A stretch of 26,439 nt of DNA, taken from a virus (Duplodnaviria; Heunggongvirae; Uroviricota; Caudoviricetes). The position numbers and the translations under genes are program-made. The stretch lies in the IMG/VR virus record IMGVR_UViG_2651869691_000005; one strand, 5' to 3'. Below the pieces are notes generated by a model. That model was not told the origin of the DNA, did not search any database, and saw nothing but the letters and a program-made list of their open reading frames with translations. Shown here piece by piece: positions 2,525 to 24,508 of the stretch. Each line of letters starts with the position of its first letter. Within the stretch, counting starts at the first letter, position 1.

Positions 2525-4436
2525 TCACTCCTCCGGACAGCTTCGCTGCCAGTTCTTTCAGGGTTGGCCGGGTCGTCTCTTCTTCCCGGGATTTTGCCAG
2601 TACAGCCAGATCAAGCTGCCAGCGTTGCACGGACACACGTAATGCCGCGTAGGCATACACCAGGCAGTCCAGCGCTTCGTTACGCCGCTTTTTGTTATCC
2701 CACAGCAGACGCATCTTTCCTTTTTCCCACTTCTCCACAAGCTCTTCCGCGACCAGTTGCTGCGCCTCTGTCTGCGAAAAAATCTCCGGATCATCAGGAA
2801 AACGGATGGCATACGACGTGGCTTCATCCGCAGGAGTGGGATCGGCTTTCATACGGGCATAGAGAATTTCTTTTGCGGTGTCCGTCCCCACTTCACACAG
2901 ATACACGCCCCGCTGATTGCGGGTTTTCGGCATGGTGATCACCGGCTTGCCATAGACAGATGCGCCTTTTACCGGCAGCACCCGGAAAACACCGTGTTTT
3001 TTTGACCTCTGATAGACAATTTCACCATCGATCCCCCCGGTGTCCCAGCAGACACGGGAAATGGTCATTTCGGTTCCGTCTGCATGGCAGTATTTTTTGT
3101 TGATCGCCGCATCCACACGTAACAGCGTCTCTTCCTCATCGGGACGGCCCATAATGATGATTTTATCCACCAGAAAAGCTTCCTCTCCCGGTGCCCATCC
3201 CCAGACATACATCTCAAAACGGTTTCGCTGCGAGTCAATGCCCGCCGTCAGATAAACCACCCGGGCAGGTACCGCCGCCGTGTAATGCACGACCTTATCC
3301 ATCAGTACCTGGTGATCGAGTTTTTCGCCCACGGCTTCTTCCCAGGTCTCGCCCAGCGTGGTGTTCACAAAGGTTTTCAGGCCGTTGGGATCTTTCAGTG
3401 CATCCAGCCAGTCATAGACTATCTGTACCCAGGTGGTAAACGGACTGTACGCCGTCCAGATATGGAACGTGATGGAGCGCGGCGGCGGAATTTCATCACC
3501 CCGGGCGCTGAAAAACGTCAGACCGTCACGGGTCCACATGCCCGTGTTTTCACAGATCCACCGCCCGTTGCTCTGGTCCAGTTCAGACTGATGGATCACG
3601 CAGCCATGATGTTCACAGAGGTAGAAAACACTTTCGGGGCTGTCCTTCTCCCATTTAAGCCCAAAAGGCGTGGACTCATCGCCAAATTTCAGATACTGCG
3701 CCTCCCCACAGTGCGGGCAGGGCACATAAAAACGCATAAAATGCGCCGACTCGTTAGCGGCTTTTTCGATCTGGCAGGTGCCTTTGATTTTAGGCGTCGA
3801 GCCGCGAATGGATTTTGGCCACACCGACCCCTCAATACGCTTATCCCCCAGCAGGGTTGGCGAGCCCTCTTTTTCGACATCCGGCTCGAACGAGGAAAGT
3901 TCGTCATAGCAGACCACGTCCACGGATTTTTCACGGTAGTTTTTGGCGGCAGCGCCGCCCAGGCACCAGAAACCGACGCCCGATGAAAAGCGTTTCAGCG
4001 TGAGGGTATTATCACGATGTTTACGCCCAAACCACGGTGCAAGATCGAGTAAAACCGGCACATCCCTGATCGTGGGTTCCACATGAGATTTCATAAAATC
4101 TTCAGCAGCAGAATCCGTGGGCTGGAAAAGAAGGCTGTTGCGTGATTTATGCTCAATAAAATAAGCCTCCACTCCCAGCAACATCTTTGTATAACCAACA
4201 CGGGCAGATTTAATCAGATTAACAGTGCGGATCCGGTCATTCCCCATGCTGTTCATGATGGCAACCTGAAACGGCAGTGTTTCCCACCGCCCCGGGGTGT
4301 AAGATGACTCTTTCGGAAGGTAATAATGTCGATCTGCCCACTGAACTGTCGTCAGAGGGACAGGAATTTTTAGCGCAAGGAGGCCGGTTGCTATCGCTCC
4401 TGCAGAATTAGCCGCCCTCAGTTCGTCTGAAATCAT
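2508..4436 (-). CDS. A: Terminase large subunit (lambda A-like)
   Basis: Long ORF with [45 protein letters not shown] and [13 protein letters not shown] blocks matching lambda gpA as recalled. Start placed at ATG 4434-4436, which has the best SD (AGGTGG, 5 nt upstream) and a lambda-like Nu1/A overlap; in-frame alternatives at 4454 and 4478. Confidence 0.88.
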
Positions 4437-10874: not shown

Positions 10875-11306
10875 GGAGTTTACTCACATCTGACAAAATC
10901 AATATAAACAGCCCCTCCGGAGAGGGGCTGGAGAGTGGCGCTATGTGCCATTGCATGGTGCCGGGTGCCTCCCGGTGAATTCAGTACCAGCACCTGAATC
11001 CGCGATTATCCCATATACCTACTCGCTGATTGCCCCTCCGCACAGGGGGATTCACCATGCCAGTTTCTTTTAACAAACTCCCCGCAAACCAGACAACAGT
11101 CAACCGCCTGAATTGTGAAGTATTTAAAAATTTCTCCGGCTAACAGTCTGGCGTTTTCTTTTTCAGCAACGGGAAAGCAACAACCACCACACCCGCCACC
11201 AGTACACAGTCAGCCAGCACTGACATTATCCGGCTGCTGCAATGCCATTCACAAAAACAGTAAGCAATCACTTTTTACCGTAACAGGTGATAATCCAGAT
11301 ATGTAT

Positions 11307-11770: not shown

Positions 11771-11847
11771 TGGCGCGTTGTACTGGATTCGAACCAGTGA
11801 CCGATTGCTTAGAAGGCAATTGCTCTGTCCGGCTGAGCTAACAACGC
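11771..11847 (-). tRNA. tRNA-Arg (anticodon UCU)
   Basis: Reverse complement GCGTTGTTAGCTCAGCCGGACAGAGCAATTGCCTTCTAAGCAATCGGTCACTGGTTCGAATCCAGTACAACGCGCCA folds as a canonical cloverleaf with a TCT anticodon, TTCGAAT T-loop and encoded CCA. Confidence 0.8.
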
Positions 11848-11944: not shown

Positions 11945-12020
11945 TGGTGGCCCTTGCTGGATTTGAACCAGCGACCTGGCGATTATGAGTCGCTCGCTCT
12001 CACCACTGAGCTAAAGGGCC
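11945..12020 (-). tRNA. tRNA-Ile2 type (anticodon CAU, ileX/ileZ-like; elongator Met cannot be excluded from sequence alone)
   Basis: Reverse complement GGCCCTTTAGCTCAGTGGTGAGAGCGAGCGACTCATAATCGCCAGGTCGCTGGTTCAAATCCAGCAAGGGCCACCA; canonical cloverleaf, closely resembling E. coli ileX as recalled. Confidence 0.8.
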
Positions 12021-14249: not shown

Positions 14250-14615
14250 TCACTCACTCTCAATTTTGTAAATCTTCACGCCCAGCCGTCCCCCAGGAAC
14301 GCGCTGACCGCGCACAATATTGATTTCATCAAACTGCTCGTCGTCTATGAGAAGTCCGGCATGCGTCAGCGCATCCAGTGGTGCTTTCAGGATATTGTCC
14401 AGGTCACGACGACGTTTATCCGGTGGCTCTGCAATAATCTTTATCGCCAGCCTTCCGGACAGGTTTAATTTCAGCCGCTGCTGGCGAACAATAAGCGCCA
14501 CATCACGGCGATAACGCTCACCGGCTTTTGATACAAAATATGTGCTGCCACGACGTCGCCAGTAAGTGTTCACCGTTGGCGGGTAAGGCAAAACAAATTC
14601 TATGCGTTCAGTCAT
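14250..14615 (-). CDS. rusA: Holliday junction resolvase RusA
   Basis: 121-aa ORF MTERIEFVLPYPPTVNTYWRRRG...PDKRRRDLDNILKAPLDAL...; RusA-like length, catalytic DLDN region and nin-region position. Confidence 0.85.
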   Translation of the reverse strand: MTERIEFVLPYPPTVNTYWRRRGSTYFVSKAGERYRRDVALIVRQQRLKLNLSGRLAIKIIAEPPDKRRRDLDNILKAPLDALTHAGLLIDDEQFDEINIVRGQRVPGGRLGVKIYKIESE

Positions 14616-15743
14616 TCATGCTTTCCACTTCAGGACACCCGAATTTCTCGCGTGCATTAAAAAACGAATCAGCAACAACAGCTGGCTGCCGTGTTTTTCT
14701 TCAAAATCTTTTACCCCGGCGTGTAGTTCGCTATGGCATTTACGGCACAGCGGAATAACAAACAAATCATCAGCCTTTGTTCCCATCCCTCCCAGTCCAT
14801 GACCAATGATGTGATGCGGATCATCTGCCTGATTACCACACGTCATGCATTTCTGCGTTTTTACCCAACGCGTGTATACAGGCATCTCTTCCCGTCGTGG
14901 TTTCTGGCGCTGGAGATACTGAGCCGGTGACTCCGGATCAACGGCAATGCTTACCACCGTCTTTTCCTGTGGCGGGTTTTGCTGGTGGGCGTGAGGCAGT
15001 AGCGCAATATTTTTTGTGCGCTGCTTCAGCATGCTGGTGGCGGTCTGCTCTCCCGGCACGATGTCGCTCTCGCGGTATACTGAGCGAATTTTTTCCGCGC
15101 GTAATCCCAGTGAACGACGTAACACCGTCTCCGGTAGTGCGTCCGCTACGTTATTTATGGTTGCCCACCAGGATAATTCAGCCAGCGATAATTCCCGCTC
15201 CTGCGTGCCATTCATTGCGTGGCGGATGACATCAATCATCCATGCTGACAGGTTTTGGTGAGCAAGCTGCCCGAGTGATTCGGAAGTCTGGTTACGCAGC
15301 TGGTTGTCGCAGTGCCAGCACAACACCATCGCGCCGGTACCGTAACAATGTATGACGGTTTCACTGTGATGGTAGTCACCATGAGGCCACTGGCAGGATT
15401 TAATGTGGCGTAACAGCCAGTCAGACAATGCACCAGCACCACCAGCAGCACGAATCACCCGCTCATCGCTGAAAAATGGCAGTAATGATTTATCCTCCGC
15501 CAGCGGCTGGCGAACAGCAGGAACGACTCCGGACGGCAGACCGCGCATGCTTTTCGGTTCCGGCTCCACCAGAACTCGAGGGTTATGAAATACCTGCATG
15601 GATTCACGGCCCGGTTTTAGCACCACCAGCCCAAGTTCCGGTACCGGAACAGGTCGAAGTAATACCCGCACGTTACCTCCAGATGCGTTGCTGGAATGTG
15701 CGGGACGGACGCGGTGGGCGTTCGGAATAAGGGAGCCTGACAT
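14616..15743 (-). CDS. DUF968-family prophage protein with C-terminal HNH-like zinc-binding motif
   Basis: C-terminus CMTCGNQADDPHHIIGHGLGGMGTKADDLFVIPLCRKCHSELH (two Cys pairs plus HH). Same position as ydfU-type genes in Qin-like prophages as recalled. Start uncertain; internal ATG at 15597-15599 is an alternative. Confidence 0.65.
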   Translation of the reverse strand: MSGSLIPNAHRVRPAHSSNASGGNVRVLLRPVPVPELGLVVLKPGRESMQVFHNPRVLVEPEPKSMRGLPSGVVPAVRQPLAEDKSLLPFFSDERVIRAAGGAGALSDWLLRHIKSCQWPHGDYHHSETVIHCYGTGAMVLCWHCDNQLRNQTSESLGQLAHQNLSAWMIDVIRHAMNGTQERELSLAELSWWATINNVADALPETVLRRSLGLRAEKIRSVYRESDIVPGEQTATSMLKQRTKNIALLPHAHQQNPPQEKTVVSIAVDPESPAQYLQRQKPRREEMPVYTRWVKTQKCMTCGNQADDPHHIIGHGLGGMGTKADDLFVIPLCRKCHSELHAGVKDFEEKHGSQLLLLIRFLMHARNSGVLKWKA

Positions 15744-16017
15744 AGATTATCCAGTGACGATAATCGAGGCTGAGGGCTTTCTTAATCTCGTATCCGCGTC
15801 TGCGGTAGTTATGAATTAGCCATTCGGCCTGTTCTTCAGTACATGGTGGGTGTTGGTACCAGTCGGTTTTAAATGCGTGTGAACGCCGCCCATGCCGGAT
15901 GGCAAGGTCGGTATCAGAATTGTGAAATTTGGTTTTGTGCACCATCTGTTTTCTCTGCTGGCGCAGCAGGTGTCAGGTGTTCAGGCTGACGTGCGAATTG
16001 TAAACCAGAATGCCAGG

Positions 16018-16045
16018 AAAAAACAAAACCCGCCGAAGCGGGTTA
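16018..16045 (-). terminator. Intrinsic terminator at the 3' end of the hok transcript
   Basis: Minus strand reads AACCCGCTTCGGCGGGTTTTGTTTTTTCC: stem-loop with GC-rich stem and U-run, about 70 nt downstream of the hok stop. Confidence 0.65.
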
Positions 16046-16112
16046 AGTGCGGGTGCGTTGAGGATGCCTGACTCATCAGAGGTGGCGAGGGATTTCTCCC
16101 TCGCCTGGTCTC

Positions 16113-16268
16113 TTACTCCTCAGGTTCGTAAGCTGTGAAGACAGCGACCTCCGTCTGGCCGGTTCGGATTCGTACCTCGCAGAGGTCTTTCCTCGTTACC
16201 AGTGCCGTCACTATGACGGTTAAACAGATGACGATCAGGGCGATTAACATCGCCTTTTGCTGCTTCAT
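16113..16268 (-). CDS. hok: Hok/Gef-family type I toxin (51 aa; HokD/RelF-like)
   Basis: Found by manual translation (below the ORF-track size cutoff): MKQQKAMLIALIVICLTVIVTALVTRKDLCEVRIRTGQTEVAVFTAYEPEE, matching Hok/Gef family sequence as recalled. SD AAGGAG 8 nt upstream. A 19-codon upstream ORF (from 16322-16324) ends in ATGA overlap with the hok start. Confidence 0.8.
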   Translation of the reverse strand: MKQQKAMLIALIVICLTVIVTALVTRKDLCEVRIRTGQTEVAVFTAYEPEE

Positions 16269-16526
16269 AGCCTGCTTCTCCTTGACCTTTCGGTCCGTAA
16301 GAGGCTAATCTCTATGTGTCGCATAGATATGGCCTCAGATTAATGTTAAGCGTCTTGCAGGACGCGTAATGTTAACTGGGGCTTTTCTCTATCTGCCTTT
16401 TGGTGTTCATGCCTGAGACAGATAGCCTCAAGCACCCGCAGTCATTCTACTTAACTAAGATTTCCCCGCAAACCGTTTTTGTCCGGCACAGTAAATATCC
16501 AACTAAACCAATGGCGTTCGCTGTAT

Positions 16527-16706
16527 TTACCGCCAGTATTCAATGCACATGACCGCCATGAACACCCCTAAAAAAAGGGCATTTATATGTCCAAACATTA
16601 ATATCAAAACATCAACTTTTTCCATATACCTTGCTGTGAAGATGATGGGCATACATGATGCGAACAACCAGAACGCAACAAACAAAAACTGCAATGCGTT
16701 TTTCAT
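16527..16706 (-). CDS. Hypothetical small membrane protein (59 aa, two predicted TM segments)
   Basis: Internal ATG 16704-16706 with strong SD (TAGGGGGAATAATG); MKNALQFLFVAFWLFASCMPIIFTARYMEKVDVLILMFGHINALFLGVFMAVMCIEYWR. Sits in an AT-rich segment directly upstream of the hok locus. Confidence 0.45.
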   Translation of the reverse strand: MKNALQFLFVAFWLFASCMPIIFTARYMEKVDVLILMFGHINALFLGVFMAVMCIEYWR

Positions 16707-17179: not shown

Positions 17180-17365
17180 TAACCTCGCTCATTCATCGCC
17201 CCACTCATCACAATATGCTTCGACCGGAGTTTTTCCTGCTTCATAATCATCACGCCATGCTTCAGCATCAGCAGCACTGCCACCACGTAACTCTGCATAG
17301 TCCATTAACAGTTCATGCCATTCTTCAAAACCGACGTTGTATTTAGTTGAACCAAAATCAGCCAT
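17180..17365 (-). CDS. Hypothetical small acidic protein (61 aa)
   Basis: Manual translation from ATG 17363-17365 with strong SD (GAGGAAGAACAAAATG): MADFGSTKYNVGFEEWHELLMDYAELRGGSAADAEAWRDDYEAGKTPVEHIVMSGAMNERG. Not in the ORF track although it is above the apparent size cutoff; start overlaps the upstream gene stop. Confidence 0.4.
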
Positions 17366-17540
17366 TTTGTTCTTCCTCTTCGTCTTTTATTTCGTGATAT
17401 GAGTAATTGCAGTAGTTAAAGAAAATATCTTTTGCTTCGTCATGTATTTCATCAGGCGTCGCATCATCATCCACTTCGAATTCATCCTCGAAATCTCCAC
17501 CGGCTATTCCCGTTTCAATAATTATTTTAAACTTTCGCAT
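17358..17540 (-). CDS. Hypothetical highly acidic small protein (60 aa)
   Basis: ORF MRKFKIIIETGIAGGDFEDEFEVDDDATPDEIHDEAKDIFFNYCNYSYHEIKDEEEEQNG, preceded by the conserved SD-hairpin element. Confidence 0.45.
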   Translation of the reverse strand: MRKFKIIIETGIAGGDFEDEFEVDDDATPDEIHDEAKDIFFNYCNYSYHEIKDEEEEQNG

Positions 17541-17545
17541 TTAAC

Positions 17546-17570
17546 TACCGCCCTTTCGGGCGGCCTCCTG
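17546..17570 (-). promoter_or_regulatory. Hairpin-split ribosome-binding element, copy 1
   Basis: Minus strand reads TCAGGAGG-CCGCCC-GAAA-GGGCGG-TAGTTAA-ATG: an SD, then a 6-bp GC stem with GAAA loop, then the start codon of the 17358-17540 gene. Confidence 0.5.
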
Positions 17571-17596
17571 ATGTTCTGAGGGTGCAGAAATCCCTC

Positions 17597-17650
17597 CGGT
17601 TAAGGATTAAATTTTTAACAGAGCTAAATTTAATTATTCAGTTCTGGATT
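17597..17650. repeat. ~55-bp intergenic direct repeat, copy A
   Basis: CCGGTTAAGGATTAAATTTTTAACAGAGCTAAATTTAATTATTCAGTTCTGGATT aligns with copy B at 18861-18918 apart from small indels and substitutions. Confidence 0.5.
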
Positions 17651-17990
17651 TTGTCGCCCTGCGTATCCGCGCTTTCGCGTTACGCTCAATCTGAATTAGC
17701 TTTTCTATATTTTTTCGCCTTTCCCGCTCCTCCTGACGCAAGAGCCTTACATCATCTGCCAGTCTGGTTTCTCTTTTCGCCACAGAGAGCATCCAGTCAA
17801 ATGGTTCCACAACTGCACCGCAGATTTTACAGCGGACCTGACGCTCTTTTTCGTCAACCCGGACAGAGGCGTGATGACAATATGGTCTTTCCGATGGCTC
17901 ATAAAGAAAATTAACCTGATTACGAGGGTCATCCTCTTTTACCGGAAATAAAACGATATTGCTTAACTCATCCTCTGGTTTTATTTCCAT
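17634..17990 (-). CDS. Hypothetical zinc-ribbon-containing protein (118 aa from ATG 17990)
   Basis: Start ATG 17988-17990 with strong SD (AAGGAGAGGAGC). Contains PYCHH...CKICG; C-terminal basic coiled-coil-like segment. Confidence 0.5.
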   Translation of the reverse strand: MEIKPEDELSNIVLFPVKEDDPRNQVNFLYEPSERPYCHHASVRVDEKERQVRCKICGAVVEPFDWMLSVAKRETRLADDVRLLRQEERERRKNIEKLIQIERNAKARIRRATKSRTE

Positions 17991-18111
17991 GCTCCTCTCC
18001 TTTGATGCGAATGCCAGCGGTAATTGAAGCCTGATAGCTAATTTCACTCACAGTACCGCCTCCTGAAAATTTAATGAACAATTCAATACGTTCTTTGGTA
18101 ATAGTGGTCAT
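17968..18111 (-). CDS. Possible small ORF (47 aa)
   Basis: Manual translation from ATG 18109-18111 with SD AAGGAG 8 nt upstream: MTTITKERIELFIKFSGGGTVSEISYQASITAGIRIKGEEHGNKTRG. Overlaps the start of the downstream gene. Confidence 0.3.
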   Translation of the reverse strand: MTTITKERIELFIKFSGGGTVSEISYQASITAGIRIKGEEHGNKTRG

Positions 18112-18121
18112 GTGTTACTCC

Positions 18122-18385
18122 TTAACCCGCAGTGCTTTCAACTGATGAGGGGAACAAAATCTTTTCATCAAACCCTGCATTCATATCATGAACAGCAACA
18201 CACCAATCCATCGACGAACGATTATCAAGAGCCTCCATGATTTCATCCATGCGGCGTAGGTCATACAGGTAAATGCTTTTATCGCCAATGGTGTAAAAGC
18301 CAATTTTTTTCGGTGATGGACAGCGATCAAGAACTTCCTGTAATTCGTTCAACCATGCCCGTTCTTTTTTTGTCAAAGTTGCCAT
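18122..18385 (-). CDS. Hypothetical protein (87 aa)
   Basis: Internal ATG 18383-18385 with SD (TAAGGAAAACTGATATG), 1 nt after the upstream gene stop: MATLTKKERAWLNELQEVLDRCPSPKKIGFYTIGDK... Confidence 0.45.
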   Translation of the reverse strand: MATLTKKERAWLNELQEVLDRCPSPKKIGFYTIGDKSIYLYDLRRMDEIMEALDNRSSMDWCVAVHDMNAGFDEKILFPSSVESTAG

Positions 18386-18386
18386 A

Positions 18387-18605
18387 TCAGTTTTCCTTAT
18401 ACGGATTAATTTTATTGTGCAGTGTGTTGAATGACGCCCATACCACGTCGTTATACAATTCAGTAACTGGCTCAATTATTTTCCCGATTGCCCAGACAAA
18501 AATTAGAGGGGATATCGGTATCATCAATACGATAAACAGAATGAGAAACAAAAATTCTGTCGCCCTACTTTTTTGCGGATATTCTTTTCTGAATAATGTA
18601 GTCAT
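18387..18605 (-). CDS. Hypothetical small membrane protein (72 aa)
   Basis: ORF with one hydrophobic segment (FLFLILFIVLMIPISPLIFVWAIG); preceded by the second copy of the SD-hairpin element. Confidence 0.45.
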   Translation of the reverse strand: MTTLFRKEYPQKSRATEFLFLILFIVLMIPISPLIFVWAIGKIIEPVTELYNDVVWASFNTLHNKINPYKEN

Positions 18606-18609
18606 TTCT

Positions 18610-18635
18610 TACCGCCCTTTCGGGCGGCCTCCCGA
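18610..18635 (-). promoter_or_regulatory. Hairpin-split ribosome-binding element, copy 2
   Basis: Minus strand reads TCGGGAGG-CCGCCC-GAAA-GGGCGG-TAAGAA-ATG, the same core as copy 1, directly upstream of the 18387-18605 gene. Confidence 0.5.
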
Positions 18636-18637
18636 CA

Positions 18638-18850
18638 TTAATCGTTGTGGTAACTCATGGCTTCATTTGCAGCATCAACCGGATCAACCTCCCACCAGCA
18701 ATAATTTGGTGCGTTTCCTTCAGGTGTCCACGGTTCCAATTCATTTTTTGCCACATTCTCGTCGCCAGTAATTTTAAAAATCTGCTCAGAGAATTTTTTC
18801 ACCCACTCGTTATATTTTTCAGTGTTAATAATTTTCTGTGTATTTGACAT
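18638..18850 (-). CDS. Hypothetical protein (70 aa)
   Basis: ORF with strong SD (CTGGAGGTATATCTATG): MSNTQKIINTEKYNEWVKKFSEQIFKITGDENVAKNELEPWTPEGNAPNYCWWEVDPVDAANEAMSYHND. Confidence 0.45.
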   Translation of the reverse strand: MSNTQKIINTEKYNEWVKKFSEQIFKITGDENVAKNELEPWTPEGNAPNYCWWEVDPVDAANEAMSYHND

Positions 18851-18860
18851 AGATATACCT

Positions 18861-18918
18861 CCAGTTAAGGATTAAATTTTATTTACAGTGCTGAACTTAA
18901 TTATTCAGATTTGGATTA
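18861..18918. repeat. ~55-bp intergenic direct repeat, copy B
   Basis: CCAGTTAAGGATTAAATTTTATTTACAGTGCTGAACTTAATTATTCAGATTTGGATT; pairs with copy A at 17597-17650. Confidence 0.5.
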
Positions 18919-18955
18919 TGCTTTCTCTTCACGAAGTTCCGATTGTTAATTTGGC

Positions 18956-19378
18956 TCACAACAGCACCTTCTGAAAATTACCCTGATAGAAAGCCAGTAC
19001 ACGCTGCATAGCTTCGCTCTTCCGGCACTCGCTACAGATTATGTTTTGACGCCTGTCGTAGCGGCGTATTTCTCCGTCTGGTAATGGCCAGATAAGGTCA
19101 GGATCAACCACAGATGGTTTCTTCAGATTTGCCCTTGAGAGTTTTTTGCGGGCGTTTTGCCAGTCCTTACGCGCCTGTTCAGACGGGAATAACCCGTAAC
19201 CAGAGTTGTATACATCGCCACTGGCAACCAGCTCTCTGGCGAGAACACTCATCAGATATCTTGTCGCACCTGTCTTGGCTTCCAGTTGCCGTAACGTCTC
19301 GCGCCCACTCCGGCGTACTAGCTCAACAACCTGCCCTTTAATTTTTTCCCGCTCTTCTTGTGTAAATACTTTTGCCAT
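18956..19378 (-). CDS. Hypothetical protein (140 aa), possible HTH
   Basis: Start ATG 19376-19378 with SD GGAGG 6 nt upstream: MAKVFTQEEREKIKGQVVELVRRSGRETLRQLEAKTGATRYLMSVLARELVASGD... Confidence 0.5.
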   Translation of the reverse strand: MAKVFTQEEREKIKGQVVELVRRSGRETLRQLEAKTGATRYLMSVLARELVASGDVYNSGYGLFPSEQARKDWQNARKKLSRANLKKPSVVDPDLIWPLPDGEIRRYDRRQNIICSECRKSEAMQRVLAFYQGNFQKVLL

Positions 19379-24450: not shown

Positions 24451-24508
24451 TTTCTGGTGACGTTTGGCGGTATCAGTTTTACTCCGTGACTGGTCTGCCG
24501 CCCTTTTT
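24451..24508 (+). ncRNA. dicF: DicF sRNA homologue
   Basis: TTTCTGGTGACGTTTGGCGGTATCAGTTTTACTCCGTGACTGGTCTGCCGCCCTTTTT matches the ~53-nt E. coli DicF sequence as I recall it, with one or two substitutions. Lies in a ~550-nt noncoding stretch of the early-left operon, as dicF does in Qin. Confidence 0.7.

What the first reader, a model, noticed from the sequence alone, without database searches (positions are those of the whole stretch)
17597..18918. ~55-bp direct repeats bounding a block of small early genes
Two copies of a ~55-bp AT-rich sequence (17597-17650 and 18861-18918) lie about 1.26 kb apart with the same orientation. Copy B supplies the SD of the 18638-18850 gene; copy A overlaps the stop of the zinc-ribbon gene, and its equivalent SD is not followed by a start codon. 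This looks like a linker or boundary sequence left by modular exchange or duplication of gene cassettes, and it could mediate recombination that gains or loses the intervening small genes.
Basis: seen in the sequence. Interest (0 to 1): 0.45.

Follow-up and report, generated by a model that had tools for sequence, protein, structure and literature searches.

The report
Conserved intergenic linker between prophage genes
The two repeats are copies of a roughly 100-base spacer that sits between many different small genes in E. coli lambda-like prophages, a clear but ordinary example of the "boundary sequences" at which such viruses swap genes.

Summary
The repeat is real: 17586-17653 and 18851-18920, about 68 nt, 83% identical, on the coding (minus) strand. 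It is the 5' half of a ~100-nt intergenic linker of Escherichia/Shigella lambdoid prophages. The 3' half is a second repeat, GGAGG followed by the hairpin CCGCCC-GAAA-GGGCGG, at 17546-17571 and 18610-18635.

Copy A is the empty linker, between the Zn-ribbon gene and DUF7167. Copy B is the same linker split by a 70-aa gene. The empty form occurs in 2,394 of 5,426 complete E. coli genomes, up to 7 places per genome. In 132 viral-contig instances it joins at least 4 upstream gene families to at least 5 downstream families, in many combinations. Polymorphisms in its left part follow the upstream gene; those in its right part follow the downstream gene.

However, the indel separating the window from its nearest relatives is bounded by a different repeat and by an illegitimate joint inside a gene. 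No recent deletion derivative exists.

No promoter, terminator, Rfam family or covariation was found. The hairpin probably shortens an SD-to-AUG gap of 22-23 nt to 6-7 nt.

Verdict: a new member of a known kind, of modest interest.

The parts
17541..17641 (-). Complete 'empty' linker (form F2), running from CTGAATAA (last codons and stop of the Zn-ribbon gene) to the base before the ATG of DUF7167
   Evidence: An identical 101-nt sequence occurs in many E. coli genomes; 2,394 of 5,426 genomes have a match.
17586..17653 (-).
17593..17597 (-). Orphan Shine-Dalgarno GGAGG with no start codon after it. It can pair with CCCTC at 17578-17582 in a 5-bp hairpin.
   Evidence: present in both the MFE and centroid structures
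17546..17571 (-). 3' half of the linker, copy HA: SD GGAGG 17568-17564, then hairpin CCGCCC-GAAA-GGGCGG 17563-17548, then the ATG at 17540. The SD-AUG gap is 23 nt linear and 7 nt with the hairpin looped out.
   Evidence: (repeat D5)
18851..18920 (-).
18638..18850 (-). 70-aa gene (phrog_4659, no Pfam match) nested between the two halves of the linker. It is the only gene found in that position in 30 occupied instances.
   Evidence: Found in 580 E. coli genomes at 80% coverage or more.
18606..18637 (-). 3' half of the linker, copy HB: SD 18632-18628, hairpin 18627-18612, ATG of DUF4014 at 18605. The gap is 22 nt linear and 6 nt with the hairpin looped out.
   Evidence: z = -2.84
17634..17990 (-). 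Zn-ribbon gene (118 aa, phrog_1621). It is the commonest upstream neighbour of the linker, and its last codons lie inside the linker.
   Evidence: (73 of 132 instances)
17358..17540 (-). DUF7167 gene, the commonest downstream neighbour of the linker
   Evidence: (53 of 132 instances)
18387..18605 (-). DUF4014 gene, a downstream neighbour of the occupied linker
18916..18930 (-). Vestigial gene end (GAAGAGAAAGCATAA, '...EEKA*') just upstream of, and overlapping, copy B. In other prophages an intact 91-aa gene ends there.
   Evidence: family U53
18033..18071 (-). Remnant of the 3' end of a DUF977 gene inside the 47-aa ORF. It is one arm of the 39-nt repeat that bounds the ~908-bp indel relative to L002 and L003.
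   Evidence: (repeat D3)
18941..18979 (-). Authentic 3' end of the DUF977 (LygF) gene plus the start of its downstream spacer; the other arm of the D3 repeat

Best explanation
The two repeats are two copies of the 5' half of one conserved intergenic element. I call it the linker. It is about 100 nt long and is found in the accessory early-gene region of Escherichia/Shigella lambdoid prophages (Rac-, Qin- and Stx-like).

On the transcribed strand the linker reads, in order:
- CTGAATAA, the last two codons and stop of whatever gene lies upstream;
- an A/T-rich leader;
- TTAATCCTTAACYGGAGG, the first Shine-Dalgarno (SD);
- about 24 nt;
- GGAGG, the second SD;
- the hairpin CCGCCC-GAAA-GGGCGG;
- 5-9 nt, then the ATG of whatever gene lies downstream.

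It exists in two forms. Copy A at 17541-17641 is the empty form. In the occupied form a 70-aa gene starts 7 nt after the first SD and ends 5-6 nt before the second. That is copy B, the gene 18638-18850 and the hairpin at 18610-18635.

Shown:
- The element is a portable gene boundary. The same sequence joins many different upstream and downstream genes.
- Its left-hand polymorphisms follow the upstream gene and its right-hand polymorphisms follow the downstream gene.
- The window holds two copies because it is a mosaic. A segment like that of an O111:H8 prophage (linker 5' half, 70-aa gene, linker 3' half, DUF4014, 87-aa gene, part of a 55-aa gene) lies within an arrangement of DUF977, Zn-ribbon, empty linker and DUF7167.

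Inferred:
- The linker works at two levels. As RNA it is a ready-made translation-initiation region. For the 70-aa gene it supplies an A/U-rich leader and an SD. For the next gene it supplies a split ribosome-binding site in which the hairpin loops out 16 nt, bringing an SD that lies 22-23 nt upstream to 6-7 nt from the AUG.
- As DNA its conservation gives phage Rad52-type recombinases (Red-beta, RecT) a short patch of homology at a harmless position. Crossovers there would reassort the flanking genes without damaging them. That would explain why five unrelated genes all end in the same CTGAATAA.
- Inside this genome the two 5' halves share at most 17 nt of unbroken identity and the two hairpin halves 23 nt. 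Intramolecular deletion should therefore be rare.
For: Repeat and second repeat.

Related arrangements with an intact cassette:
- ArgO145: Zn-ribbon, 5' half, 70-aa gene, 3' half, DUF7167.
- O111:H8 prophage: the same, followed by DUF4014.
- Empty form after a different upstream gene in AVS0283.

Searches give 132 instances: 102 classed empty (three of them chance matches to the core; a few more are occupied copies cut by a contig end or frameshifted) and 30 occupied.
- Upstream families: Zn-ribbon 73, Ea22-like 13, and two further protein families.
- Downstream families: DUF7167 53, DUF4014-type 30, Ea22-like 28, a 178-aa family 4, and others.
- Flank classes defined by sequence: 29 combinations out of 10 upstream x 16 downstream classes.

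Column-wise association. Alignment columns 14-28 are explained mainly by the upstream class (0.46-0.78, against 0.24-0.52 for the downstream class; column 20 is the exception, about equal at 0.35-0.36). Columns 69-72 and 98-109 are explained mainly by the downstream class (0.54-1.0).

The hairpin half never occurs without the 5' half or the 70-aa gene in 135 instances.

Distribution:
- Empty form in 2,394 of 5,426 complete E. coli genomes, 3,397 places, up to 7 per genome.
- Occupied form in 580 genomes.
- In Rac, ArgO145, Stx2a phages and mEp460.
- Among species representatives, only E. coli and Shigella flexneri.

Single hybrid copy between DUF977 and DUF7167 in N18-04097.

The hairpin is present in the MFE and centroid folds. 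GGAG before the hairpin is invariant in 52 unique variants.

Literature:
- Split ribosome-binding sites of T4 genes 38 (22 to 5 nt) and 25 (27 to 11 nt): PMC3014915.
- Rad52-like recombinases make lambda x Rac/Qin mosaics on diverged homology, independently of RecA: PMC3945230.
- Conserved ~100-bp intergenic cassettes driving gene shuffling in T4-type phages: PMC2839356.
Against: - No experiment shows crossovers inside the linker. The association pattern would also arise if the linker were simply inherited with one neighbour and the other neighbour replaced.
- Vestigial gene ends lie just upstream of several linkers ('EEKA*' before copy B; an Ea22-like end in Rac 442/2). The left joint of the inserted segment in this window lies inside a gene at 2-3 nt of microhomology. 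Illegitimate recombination therefore also shapes the region.
- The three hairpins are 97% paired but show no covariation beyond shuffled controls (169 of 500 shuffles did as well; one compensatory change in all). Selection for structure is not demonstrated.
- The central core is invariant partly by ascertainment, because it was the search pattern.
- No deletion derivative at 99% identity or more exists among 5,426 genomes.
- The 5' half alone has no significant fold (z = 0.06).
Confidence: 0.75

Rival explanations
1. Passive remnant. The sequence is just the untranslated leader of the 70-aa and DUF7167 genes. Gene replacement happens by illegitimate recombination anywhere, and only products that keep the leader intact survive, because the downstream gene needs it for translation. 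On this view the linker marks boundaries but does not promote exchange.
For: - Vestigial 3' gene ends upstream of linkers.
- A microhomology joint inside the 55-aa gene created the 47-aa chimera.
- De Paepe et al. found flanking homology at only about 30% of recent mosaics.
- No covariation and no recent recombinant.
Against: - At least four unrelated upstream genes (Zn-ribbon, Ea22-like, U34, U40-type) end in the identical CTGAATAA. Random joints filtered only by downstream-gene function would not do this.
- Hybrid linkers have a 5' part of one haplotype and a 3' part of another.
- There are 29 flank combinations.
Confidence: 0.2
2. Regulatory cassette of the T4 PeSL type: each copy would carry its own promoter and/or terminator, or encode a small RNA, so that the repeats are selected as transcription signals.
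For: - Intergenic position, A/T-rich segment, stem-loop, SD at the 3' end, about 100 nt, and association with gene presence/absence. All of these resemble PeSLs.
Against: - The consensus scan finds no sigma-70-like promoter and no terminator-like site in either copy on either strand.
- The hairpin is followed by AGTTAAATG or AAGAAATG, not a U-tract.
- No Rfam family at gathering threshold or at E up to 5.
- The element lies inside a co-oriented early operon of tightly packed genes.
Confidence: 0.04
3. Recent in-situ duplication of a cassette within this prophage, with the copies since diverged.
For: Same orientation and 1.27 kb spacing. Both the 5'-half and hairpin repeats are duplicated in the same order.
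Against: - The copies are only 83% identical, while each has 100% identical counterparts in other prophages in different contexts.
- The sequences between and beside the copies are not paralogous.
- Copy B carries the vestige of a different upstream gene.
- The segment 18070-18920 matches an O111:H8 prophage at 93%.
Confidence: 0.01

Closest known systems
Conserved boundary ('linker') sequences between modules of lambdoid phages. This is the Susskind-Botstein modular model, with boundary sequences reported for the HK620/lambdoid nin regions by Clark et al. 2001. The attribution to those papers is from my own knowledge; the model itself is summarised in PMC3233612.
   Same: A short conserved sequence between genes, flanked by unrelated genes in different phages. 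Homology-to-non-homology transitions fall at it. It occurs in temperate lambdoid phages of enterobacteria, in the accessory early region.
   Different: - This particular sequence was not found described in the library I searched (the search was not exhaustive).
- It includes the last two codons of the upstream gene.
- It has an internal slot occupied by one specific 70-aa gene.
- It carries an SD-hairpin-AUG arrangement.
PeSL (promoter-early stem-loop) cassettes of T4-type phages phi1 and RB49 (Arbiol et al. 2010, PMC2839356)
   Same: - Repeated intergenic cassettes of about 100 bp in plastic regions rich in small genes of unknown function.
- They begin at the stop codon of the upstream gene in an A/T-rich stretch, contain a stem-loop, and end with an SD and a start codon.
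- They flank genes that are present or absent between relatives.
- A single chimeric copy is left where the gene is missing.
   Different: - No sigma-70 promoter and no terminator function is predicted here.
- The host is a temperate lambdoid prophage, not a virulent myovirus.
- The element sits inside an antiterminated operon.
- No mini-circles have been looked for.
Split ribosome-binding sites of T4 genes 38 and 25 (Nivinskas et al. 1999; Malys and Nivinskas 2009; reviewed in PMC3014915)
   Same: The SD and AUG are too far apart in the linear sequence (22-23 nt here; 22 and 27 nt in T4). A stable hairpin between them reduces the distance to a functional 6-7 nt (5 and 11 nt in T4).
   Different: - Unrelated sequence.
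- Here the same SD-hairpin unit precedes several unrelated genes.
- Function is untested, and covariation does not yet support selection for the stem.
Integron attC gene cassettes
   Same: A repeated boundary element associated with single small promoterless genes that are present or absent at a given slot.
   Different: - No integrase or other site-specific recombinase is associated.
- No attC-like imperfect palindrome spans the element.
- Exchange points are spread along the element and not at one fixed position.

Membership tests
Lambdoid-phage boundary/linker sequence | A short conserved sequence located between genes, not inside them | tested here: met
   It lies between the stop of the upstream gene and the start of the downstream gene in all true instances. 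Only the last 2-6 codons of the upstream gene are included.
Lambdoid-phage boundary/linker sequence | The same sequence is flanked by non-homologous genes in different phages | tested here: met
   At least 4 upstream protein families and at least 5 downstream protein families; 29 combinations of flank classes.
Lambdoid-phage boundary/linker sequence | Recombination joints fall within it (hybrid copies) | tested here: inconclusive
   Left-hand polymorphisms track the upstream gene and right-hand ones the downstream gene. There is a hybrid copy in N18-04097. However, no formal breakpoint test against control spacers was run, and illegitimate joints also occur nearby.
PeSL-type regulatory cassette | Strong sigma-70-like early promoter within the element | tested here: not met
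   No promoter-like site in either copy on either strand. There were 4 sites in 3.5 kb, all elsewhere, fewer than the 6.1 expected from shuffles.
PeSL-type regulatory cassette | Stem-loop acting as a transcription terminator or attenuator | tested here: not met
   A stable G+C hairpin is present but has no U-tract, and the terminator scan did not report it. Activity is not testable here.
PeSL-type regulatory cassette | Flanks genes that differ in presence between close relatives, with one chimeric copy left at the empty site | tested here: met
   Occupied and empty forms at the same junctions; a single hybrid copy in N18-04097.
Split ribosome-binding site (T4 gene 38/25 type) | SD-AUG spacing beyond the functional range, with no alternative SD near the AUG | tested here: met
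   23 nt (DUF7167) and 22 nt (DUF4014). The spacers AGTTAA and AAGAA contain no SD. The same holds for the Ea22-like downstream family. The 178-aa family has its own GGAG after the hairpin.
Split ribosome-binding site (T4 gene 38/25 type) | A stable intervening hairpin that brings the SD to 5-11 nt from the AUG | tested here: met
   A stem of 6 G-C pairs, extended to 7 by a G.U pair, with a GAAA loop, is present in both the MFE and centroid structures. Looped-out spacing is 7 and 6 nt.
Split ribosome-binding site (T4 gene 38/25 type) | Stem integrity is required for translation (mutational or covariation evidence) | tested here: inconclusive
   95.6% of cells are paired in this helix, but there is only one compensatory change and no excess over shuffles. 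Mutational evidence is not obtainable with these tools.
Antitermination nut site (boxA + boxB) | A conserved boxA about 8 nt upstream of a boxB hairpin with a GNRA-like loop, located just downstream of the early promoters | tested here: not met
   The loop is GNRA (GAAA or GGCA), but the sequence before the hairpin is CAGAACATCAGGAGG, with no boxA. The only boxA-like string (GCTCTGTTA) is about 60 nt away, in the most variable columns. The element lies distal to the replication genes and is present in several copies.
Integron-like site-specific cassette site / MITE | An associated site-specific recombinase and a fixed crossover point, or terminal inverted repeats with target-site duplication | tested here: not met
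   No inverted repeat spans the element. The neighbouring genes are small accessory proteins with no integrase. Haplotype switches are spread over the element.

The most novel reading that the evidence does not exclude
The linker could be the temperate-phage counterpart of the T4 PeSL: a dedicated, selected 'plug-and-play' junction. On this reading, every accessory gene that lands behind it receives a working split ribosome-binding site. Its conserved core would be a preferred crossover point for Red/RecET-type recombinases. Genes or gene groups lying between two linkers, such as the 1.27-kb block here or the 70-aa gene alone, could then be excised as circles and reinserted at any other linker in any co-resident lambdoid prophage. 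E. coli genomes carry up to 7 such places.
Probability: 0.2. Interest if true: 0.6.

Novelty: new member of a known kind. Interest (0 to 1): 0.35.

Why it matters
How phage genomes become mosaics is a long-standing question. One view is homologous exchange at conserved boundary sequences. The other is random illegitimate joining followed by selection.

This locus shows both signatures within 1.3 kb. There is a widely shared linker that joins dozens of gene combinations. There is also, next to it, a microhomology joint inside a gene and vestigial gene ends.

The linker is present in nearly half of complete E. coli genomes, often in several prophages of one cell. That makes it a convenient natural substrate for measuring how much short, diverged homology contributes to gene flow between prophages, including Stx phages.

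The SD-hairpin-AUG unit would also extend the split ribosome-binding site, known from two T4 genes, to a portable element serving several unrelated genes.

None of this is surprising in kind. It does not change the annotation of any gene, except to flag the 47-aa ORF as a chimera.

Tried and rejected
- Rfam, at gathering threshold over the whole window and at E up to 5 over 17300-19100: nothing at either copy or hairpin.
- Promoter and terminator scan: nothing in the copies.
- Covariation test of three candidate hairpins on 52 unique variants: compatible, but not better than shuffles. I therefore do not claim a selected RNA structure.
- Whether the empty form is a deletion scar of the occupied form. 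Aligning its 22-nt middle to the start and end of the 70-aa gene scores no better than shuffles (681 and 1,202 of 2,000). The direction is left open.
- nut-site reading of the GNRA hairpin: rejected, because there is no boxA, the position is wrong and there are several copies.
- In-situ duplication: rejected (83% between copies against 100% to copies elsewhere).
- Simple deletion between copies A and B as the difference from the nearest relatives: rejected. That indel is about 908 bp and is bounded by the D3 repeat.
- Literature searches for a description of this specific element ('boundary sequences' with lambdoid, 'linker sequences', lygF, 'conserved intergenic'): only the general models were found.
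- Pfam and PHROG searches of the neighbouring small proteins gave only DUF or unknown-function families.
- The protein-database, structure-prediction and metagenome tools were not used, because the question is about non-coding DNA.
Full report
**Context.** The window is part of an E. coli lambdoid prophage of the Rac/Qin type.
- Region 17300-19200 is 100% identical to E. coli FDAARGOS_1059.
- Rfam finds DicF, the sok antitoxin RNA (next to an annotated hokD-type ORF), STnc100 and two tRNAs elsewhere in the window.
- All genes around the finding are on the minus strand, downstream of the replication genes.
- In transcription order they are: O-like, DnaC-like, DUF1627, DUF977 (LygF; 19378-18956), a 70-aa gene (18850-18638), DUF4014 (18605-18387), an 87-aa gene (18385-18122), a 47-aa ORF (18111-17968), a Zn-ribbon gene (17990-17634), DUF7167 (17540-17358) and a 58-aa gene.

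**Observation.** The repeat is real.
- The two copies align over 17586-17653 and 18851-18920.
- My count on the alignment gives 57 of 69 columns identical (83%), with one 2-nt indel.
- A 24-nt degenerate core matches only these two sites, and no shuffle of the window gave a match.
- On the coding strand, copy B ends in GGAGG-TATATCT-ATG, the start of the 70-aa gene.
- Copy A begins with the last six codons and the TAA of the Zn-ribbon gene. Its GGAGG is followed by GATTTCTGCA, with no start codon.

There is a second direct repeat, GGAGGCCGCCCGAAAGGGCGGTA, present as two exact 23-nt copies.
- One lies 13 nt downstream of copy A and 5 nt before the ATG of DUF7167.
- The other lies directly after the stop of the 70-aa gene and 5 nt before the ATG of DUF4014.

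**What it is.** Relatives resolve the picture.
- In phage ArgO145 the order is Zn-ribbon, copy-type leader, 70-aa gene, GGAGG-hairpin, DUF7167.
- In an O111:H8 prophage the order is the same, but followed by DUF4014.
- In strain SCEC020023 and phage 813R8 the order is DUF977, Zn-ribbon, leader, 13 nt, GGAGG-hairpin, DUF7167, identical to copy A.
- In strain AVS0283 a different upstream gene is followed by the 3' part of the same element and DUF7167.
- Copy A is the empty form (F2). Copy B plus the hairpin at 18610-18635 is the same element with the 70-aa gene sitting between its halves (F1).

**Population evidence from viral contigs.** Together with the annotated loci this gave 132 instances.
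- 102 were classed as empty. Three of these are chance matches to the core, and a few others are occupied copies cut by a contig end or frameshifted.
- 30 were classed as occupied.
- The gene inside occupied copies is always the same 70-aa family.
- In 135 occurrences, the hairpin half is never seen without either the 5' half or the 70-aa gene before it.
- Upstream genes fall into several unrelated families: Zn-ribbon (73 instances), Ea22-like (13), a 151-aa family, a 91-aa family and short vestiges.
- Downstream genes include DUF7167 (53), DUF4014-type (30), an Ea22-like family (28), a 178-aa family (4) and others.
- With flanks classified by sequence there are 29 upstream x downstream combinations, out of 10 x 16 classes.
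- The unrelated upstream genes all end in the same CTGAATAA, so the element reaches two codons into whatever precedes it.

**Population evidence from complete genomes.**
- The empty form matches 2,394 of 5,426 complete E. coli genomes at 3,397 places, up to 7 per genome.
- The occupied form covers at least 80% of the query in 580 genomes.
- The element is present in Rac, ArgO145, several Stx2a phages and mEp460.
- Among one-genome-per-species representatives, the 19-nt core occurs only in E. coli and Shigella flexneri. The other two hits are a Collinsella MAG scaffold, which is evidently E. coli prophage DNA, and one chance match.

**Does it mark or make recombination?** Three observations favour exchange within the element.
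- In the alignment of 52 unique empty variants, polymorphisms in columns 14-28 are mostly explained by the upstream flank class. Those in columns 69-72 and 98-109 are mostly explained by the downstream class.
- The shared CTGAATAA ending of unrelated genes is hard to obtain from random joints.

Four observations count against a purely homology-driven picture.
- N18-04097 is only about 90% identical, and no derivative at 99% or more exists among 5,426 genomes.
- Several linkers are preceded by vestigial gene ends: '...EEKA*' at 18930-18916 before copy B, and an Ea22-like end in Rac 442/2.
- The segment that distinguishes the window from its nearest relatives is not the block between the copies. 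It is about 908 bp, bounded by another 39-nt repeat (18033-18071 / 18941-18979, the 3' end of DUF977).
- The left joint of that segment lies inside a 55-aa gene at 2-3 nt of microhomology, which creates the chimeric 47-aa ORF.

The window's arrangement is best read as a mosaic.
- An O111:H8-like segment (18070-18920, 93% identity) sits in a background of DUF977, Zn-ribbon, empty linker and DUF7167.
- The two copies derive from two lineages, not from a duplication.
- Published work shows that Red-beta and RecT recombinases make lambda x Rac/Qin mosaics on diverged homology without RecA. It also found flanking homology at only about 30% of recent mosaics (PMC3945230). Both processes are therefore expected.

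**Function as RNA.**
- No sigma-70-like promoter or intrinsic terminator is predicted in either copy.
- There is no Rfam match, even at E up to 5.
- The 5' half has no significant fold (z = 0.06). The hairpin regions fold stably and appear in both MFE and centroid structures (z = -2.8 and -1.8).
- The SD before the hairpin (GGAG) is invariant in all 52 variants, and no SD lies between the hairpin and the AUG of DUF7167, DUF4014 or the Ea22-like family.
- The linear SD-AUG gap is 22-23 nt; with the 16-nt hairpin looped out it is 6-7 nt.
- This is the arrangement shown experimentally for T4 genes 38 (22 to 5 nt) and 25 (27 to 11 nt) (PMC3014915).
- I therefore infer a split ribosome-binding site. 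The inference rests on anatomy alone: the three candidate helices are 97% paired, but with one compensatory change and no excess over shuffles.
- In the empty form the first SD is orphaned and can pair with CCCTC 10 nt downstream. Whether that matters is unknown.
- Whether the empty form is a deletion scar of the occupied form could not be decided.

**Comparison with known systems.**
- The element meets the defining features of a lambdoid boundary (linker) sequence as summarised in PMC3233612.
- It works much like the PeSL cassettes of T4-type phages (PMC2839356). Both are about 100 bp, begin at the upstream stop codon, contain a stem-loop and end with an SD and a start codon. Both flank genes that are present or absent, and leave one chimeric copy at the empty site.
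- It fails the two defining PeSL features, promoter and terminator, so it is not a PeSL.
- It is not a nut site, an attC site or a MITE.
- I found no description of this particular element in the searchable library. That search is not exhaustive.

**Verdict.**
- It is a new member of a known kind.
- It is a good natural test-bed for the homologous-versus-illegitimate debate on phage mosaicism and for portable split ribosome-binding sites, but it is not surprising to a specialist.
- Interest: 0.35.

Noticed in passing
window 17968-18111 (-): The annotated 47-aa ORF (WP_000207966.1) is a chimera. Its first 54 nt are the start of a 55-aa gene seen intact in AVS0283. At about 18071 it switches to the 3' end of a DUF977 gene, read in another frame, plus the DUF977/Zn-ribbon spacer. 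It is a recombination joint rather than a genuine gene.
   Followed up: yes
window 18916-18930 (-): A vestigial gene end, GAAGAGAAAGCATAA ('...EEKA*'), lies between DUF977 and copy B. In other prophages an intact 91-aa gene ends with this sequence right before the linker.
   Followed up: partly
L081, L092, L097, L101, L107, L119 (viral contigs), linker positions after the first GGAGG: In some variants a run of 8-9 G replaces GATTT (GGAGGGGGGGGCTGCACCC). Its length differs between contigs, so it is either a slippage-prone tract or a sequencing artefact.
   Followed up: no
L135 (JAIHTM010000290.1, 'Collinsella sp.' MAG scaffold, 3 kb): It carries a Zn-ribbon end, linker and DUF7167 start nearly identical to those of E. 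coli prophages. This is almost certainly E. coli prophage DNA mis-binned into a Collinsella MAG.
   Followed up: partly
PP818812.1 'Actinobacillus phage vB_Apl-pPE4' 11316-11413: A phage labelled as infecting Actinobacillus pleuropneumoniae carries the linker at 94% identity, along with other pieces of this region at about 93%. The host label looks odd for such E. coli-like DNA.
   Followed up: no
window 24452-24503 (+); 16266-16437 (-); 10900-11089 (-); 11774-11847 and 11948-12020 (-): Rfam hits above gathering score: DicF antisense RNA, sok antitoxin RNA (adjacent to the hokD-like ORF 16113-16268), STnc100 sRNA and two tRNA genes. These are typical Qin/Rac-type prophage cargo.
   Followed up: no
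L001 (NZ_CP066032.1) locus 1-2230, compared with window about 14300-16529: In FDAARGOS_1059 an IS679/IS66-family element is annotated just left of the region, where the window has other ORFs and hok/sok. The window is therefore not from that strain, although 17300-19200 is 100% identical.
   Followed up: no
L130 (N18-04097) 1522-1653, L128 (Rac 442/2): In these two prophages the ATG of DUF7167 behind the linker is mutated to ATA (GTGAAATACGAAAA). RefSeq annotates a shorter protein in N18-04097 from an internal start, so the gene may be decaying there.
   Followed up: no
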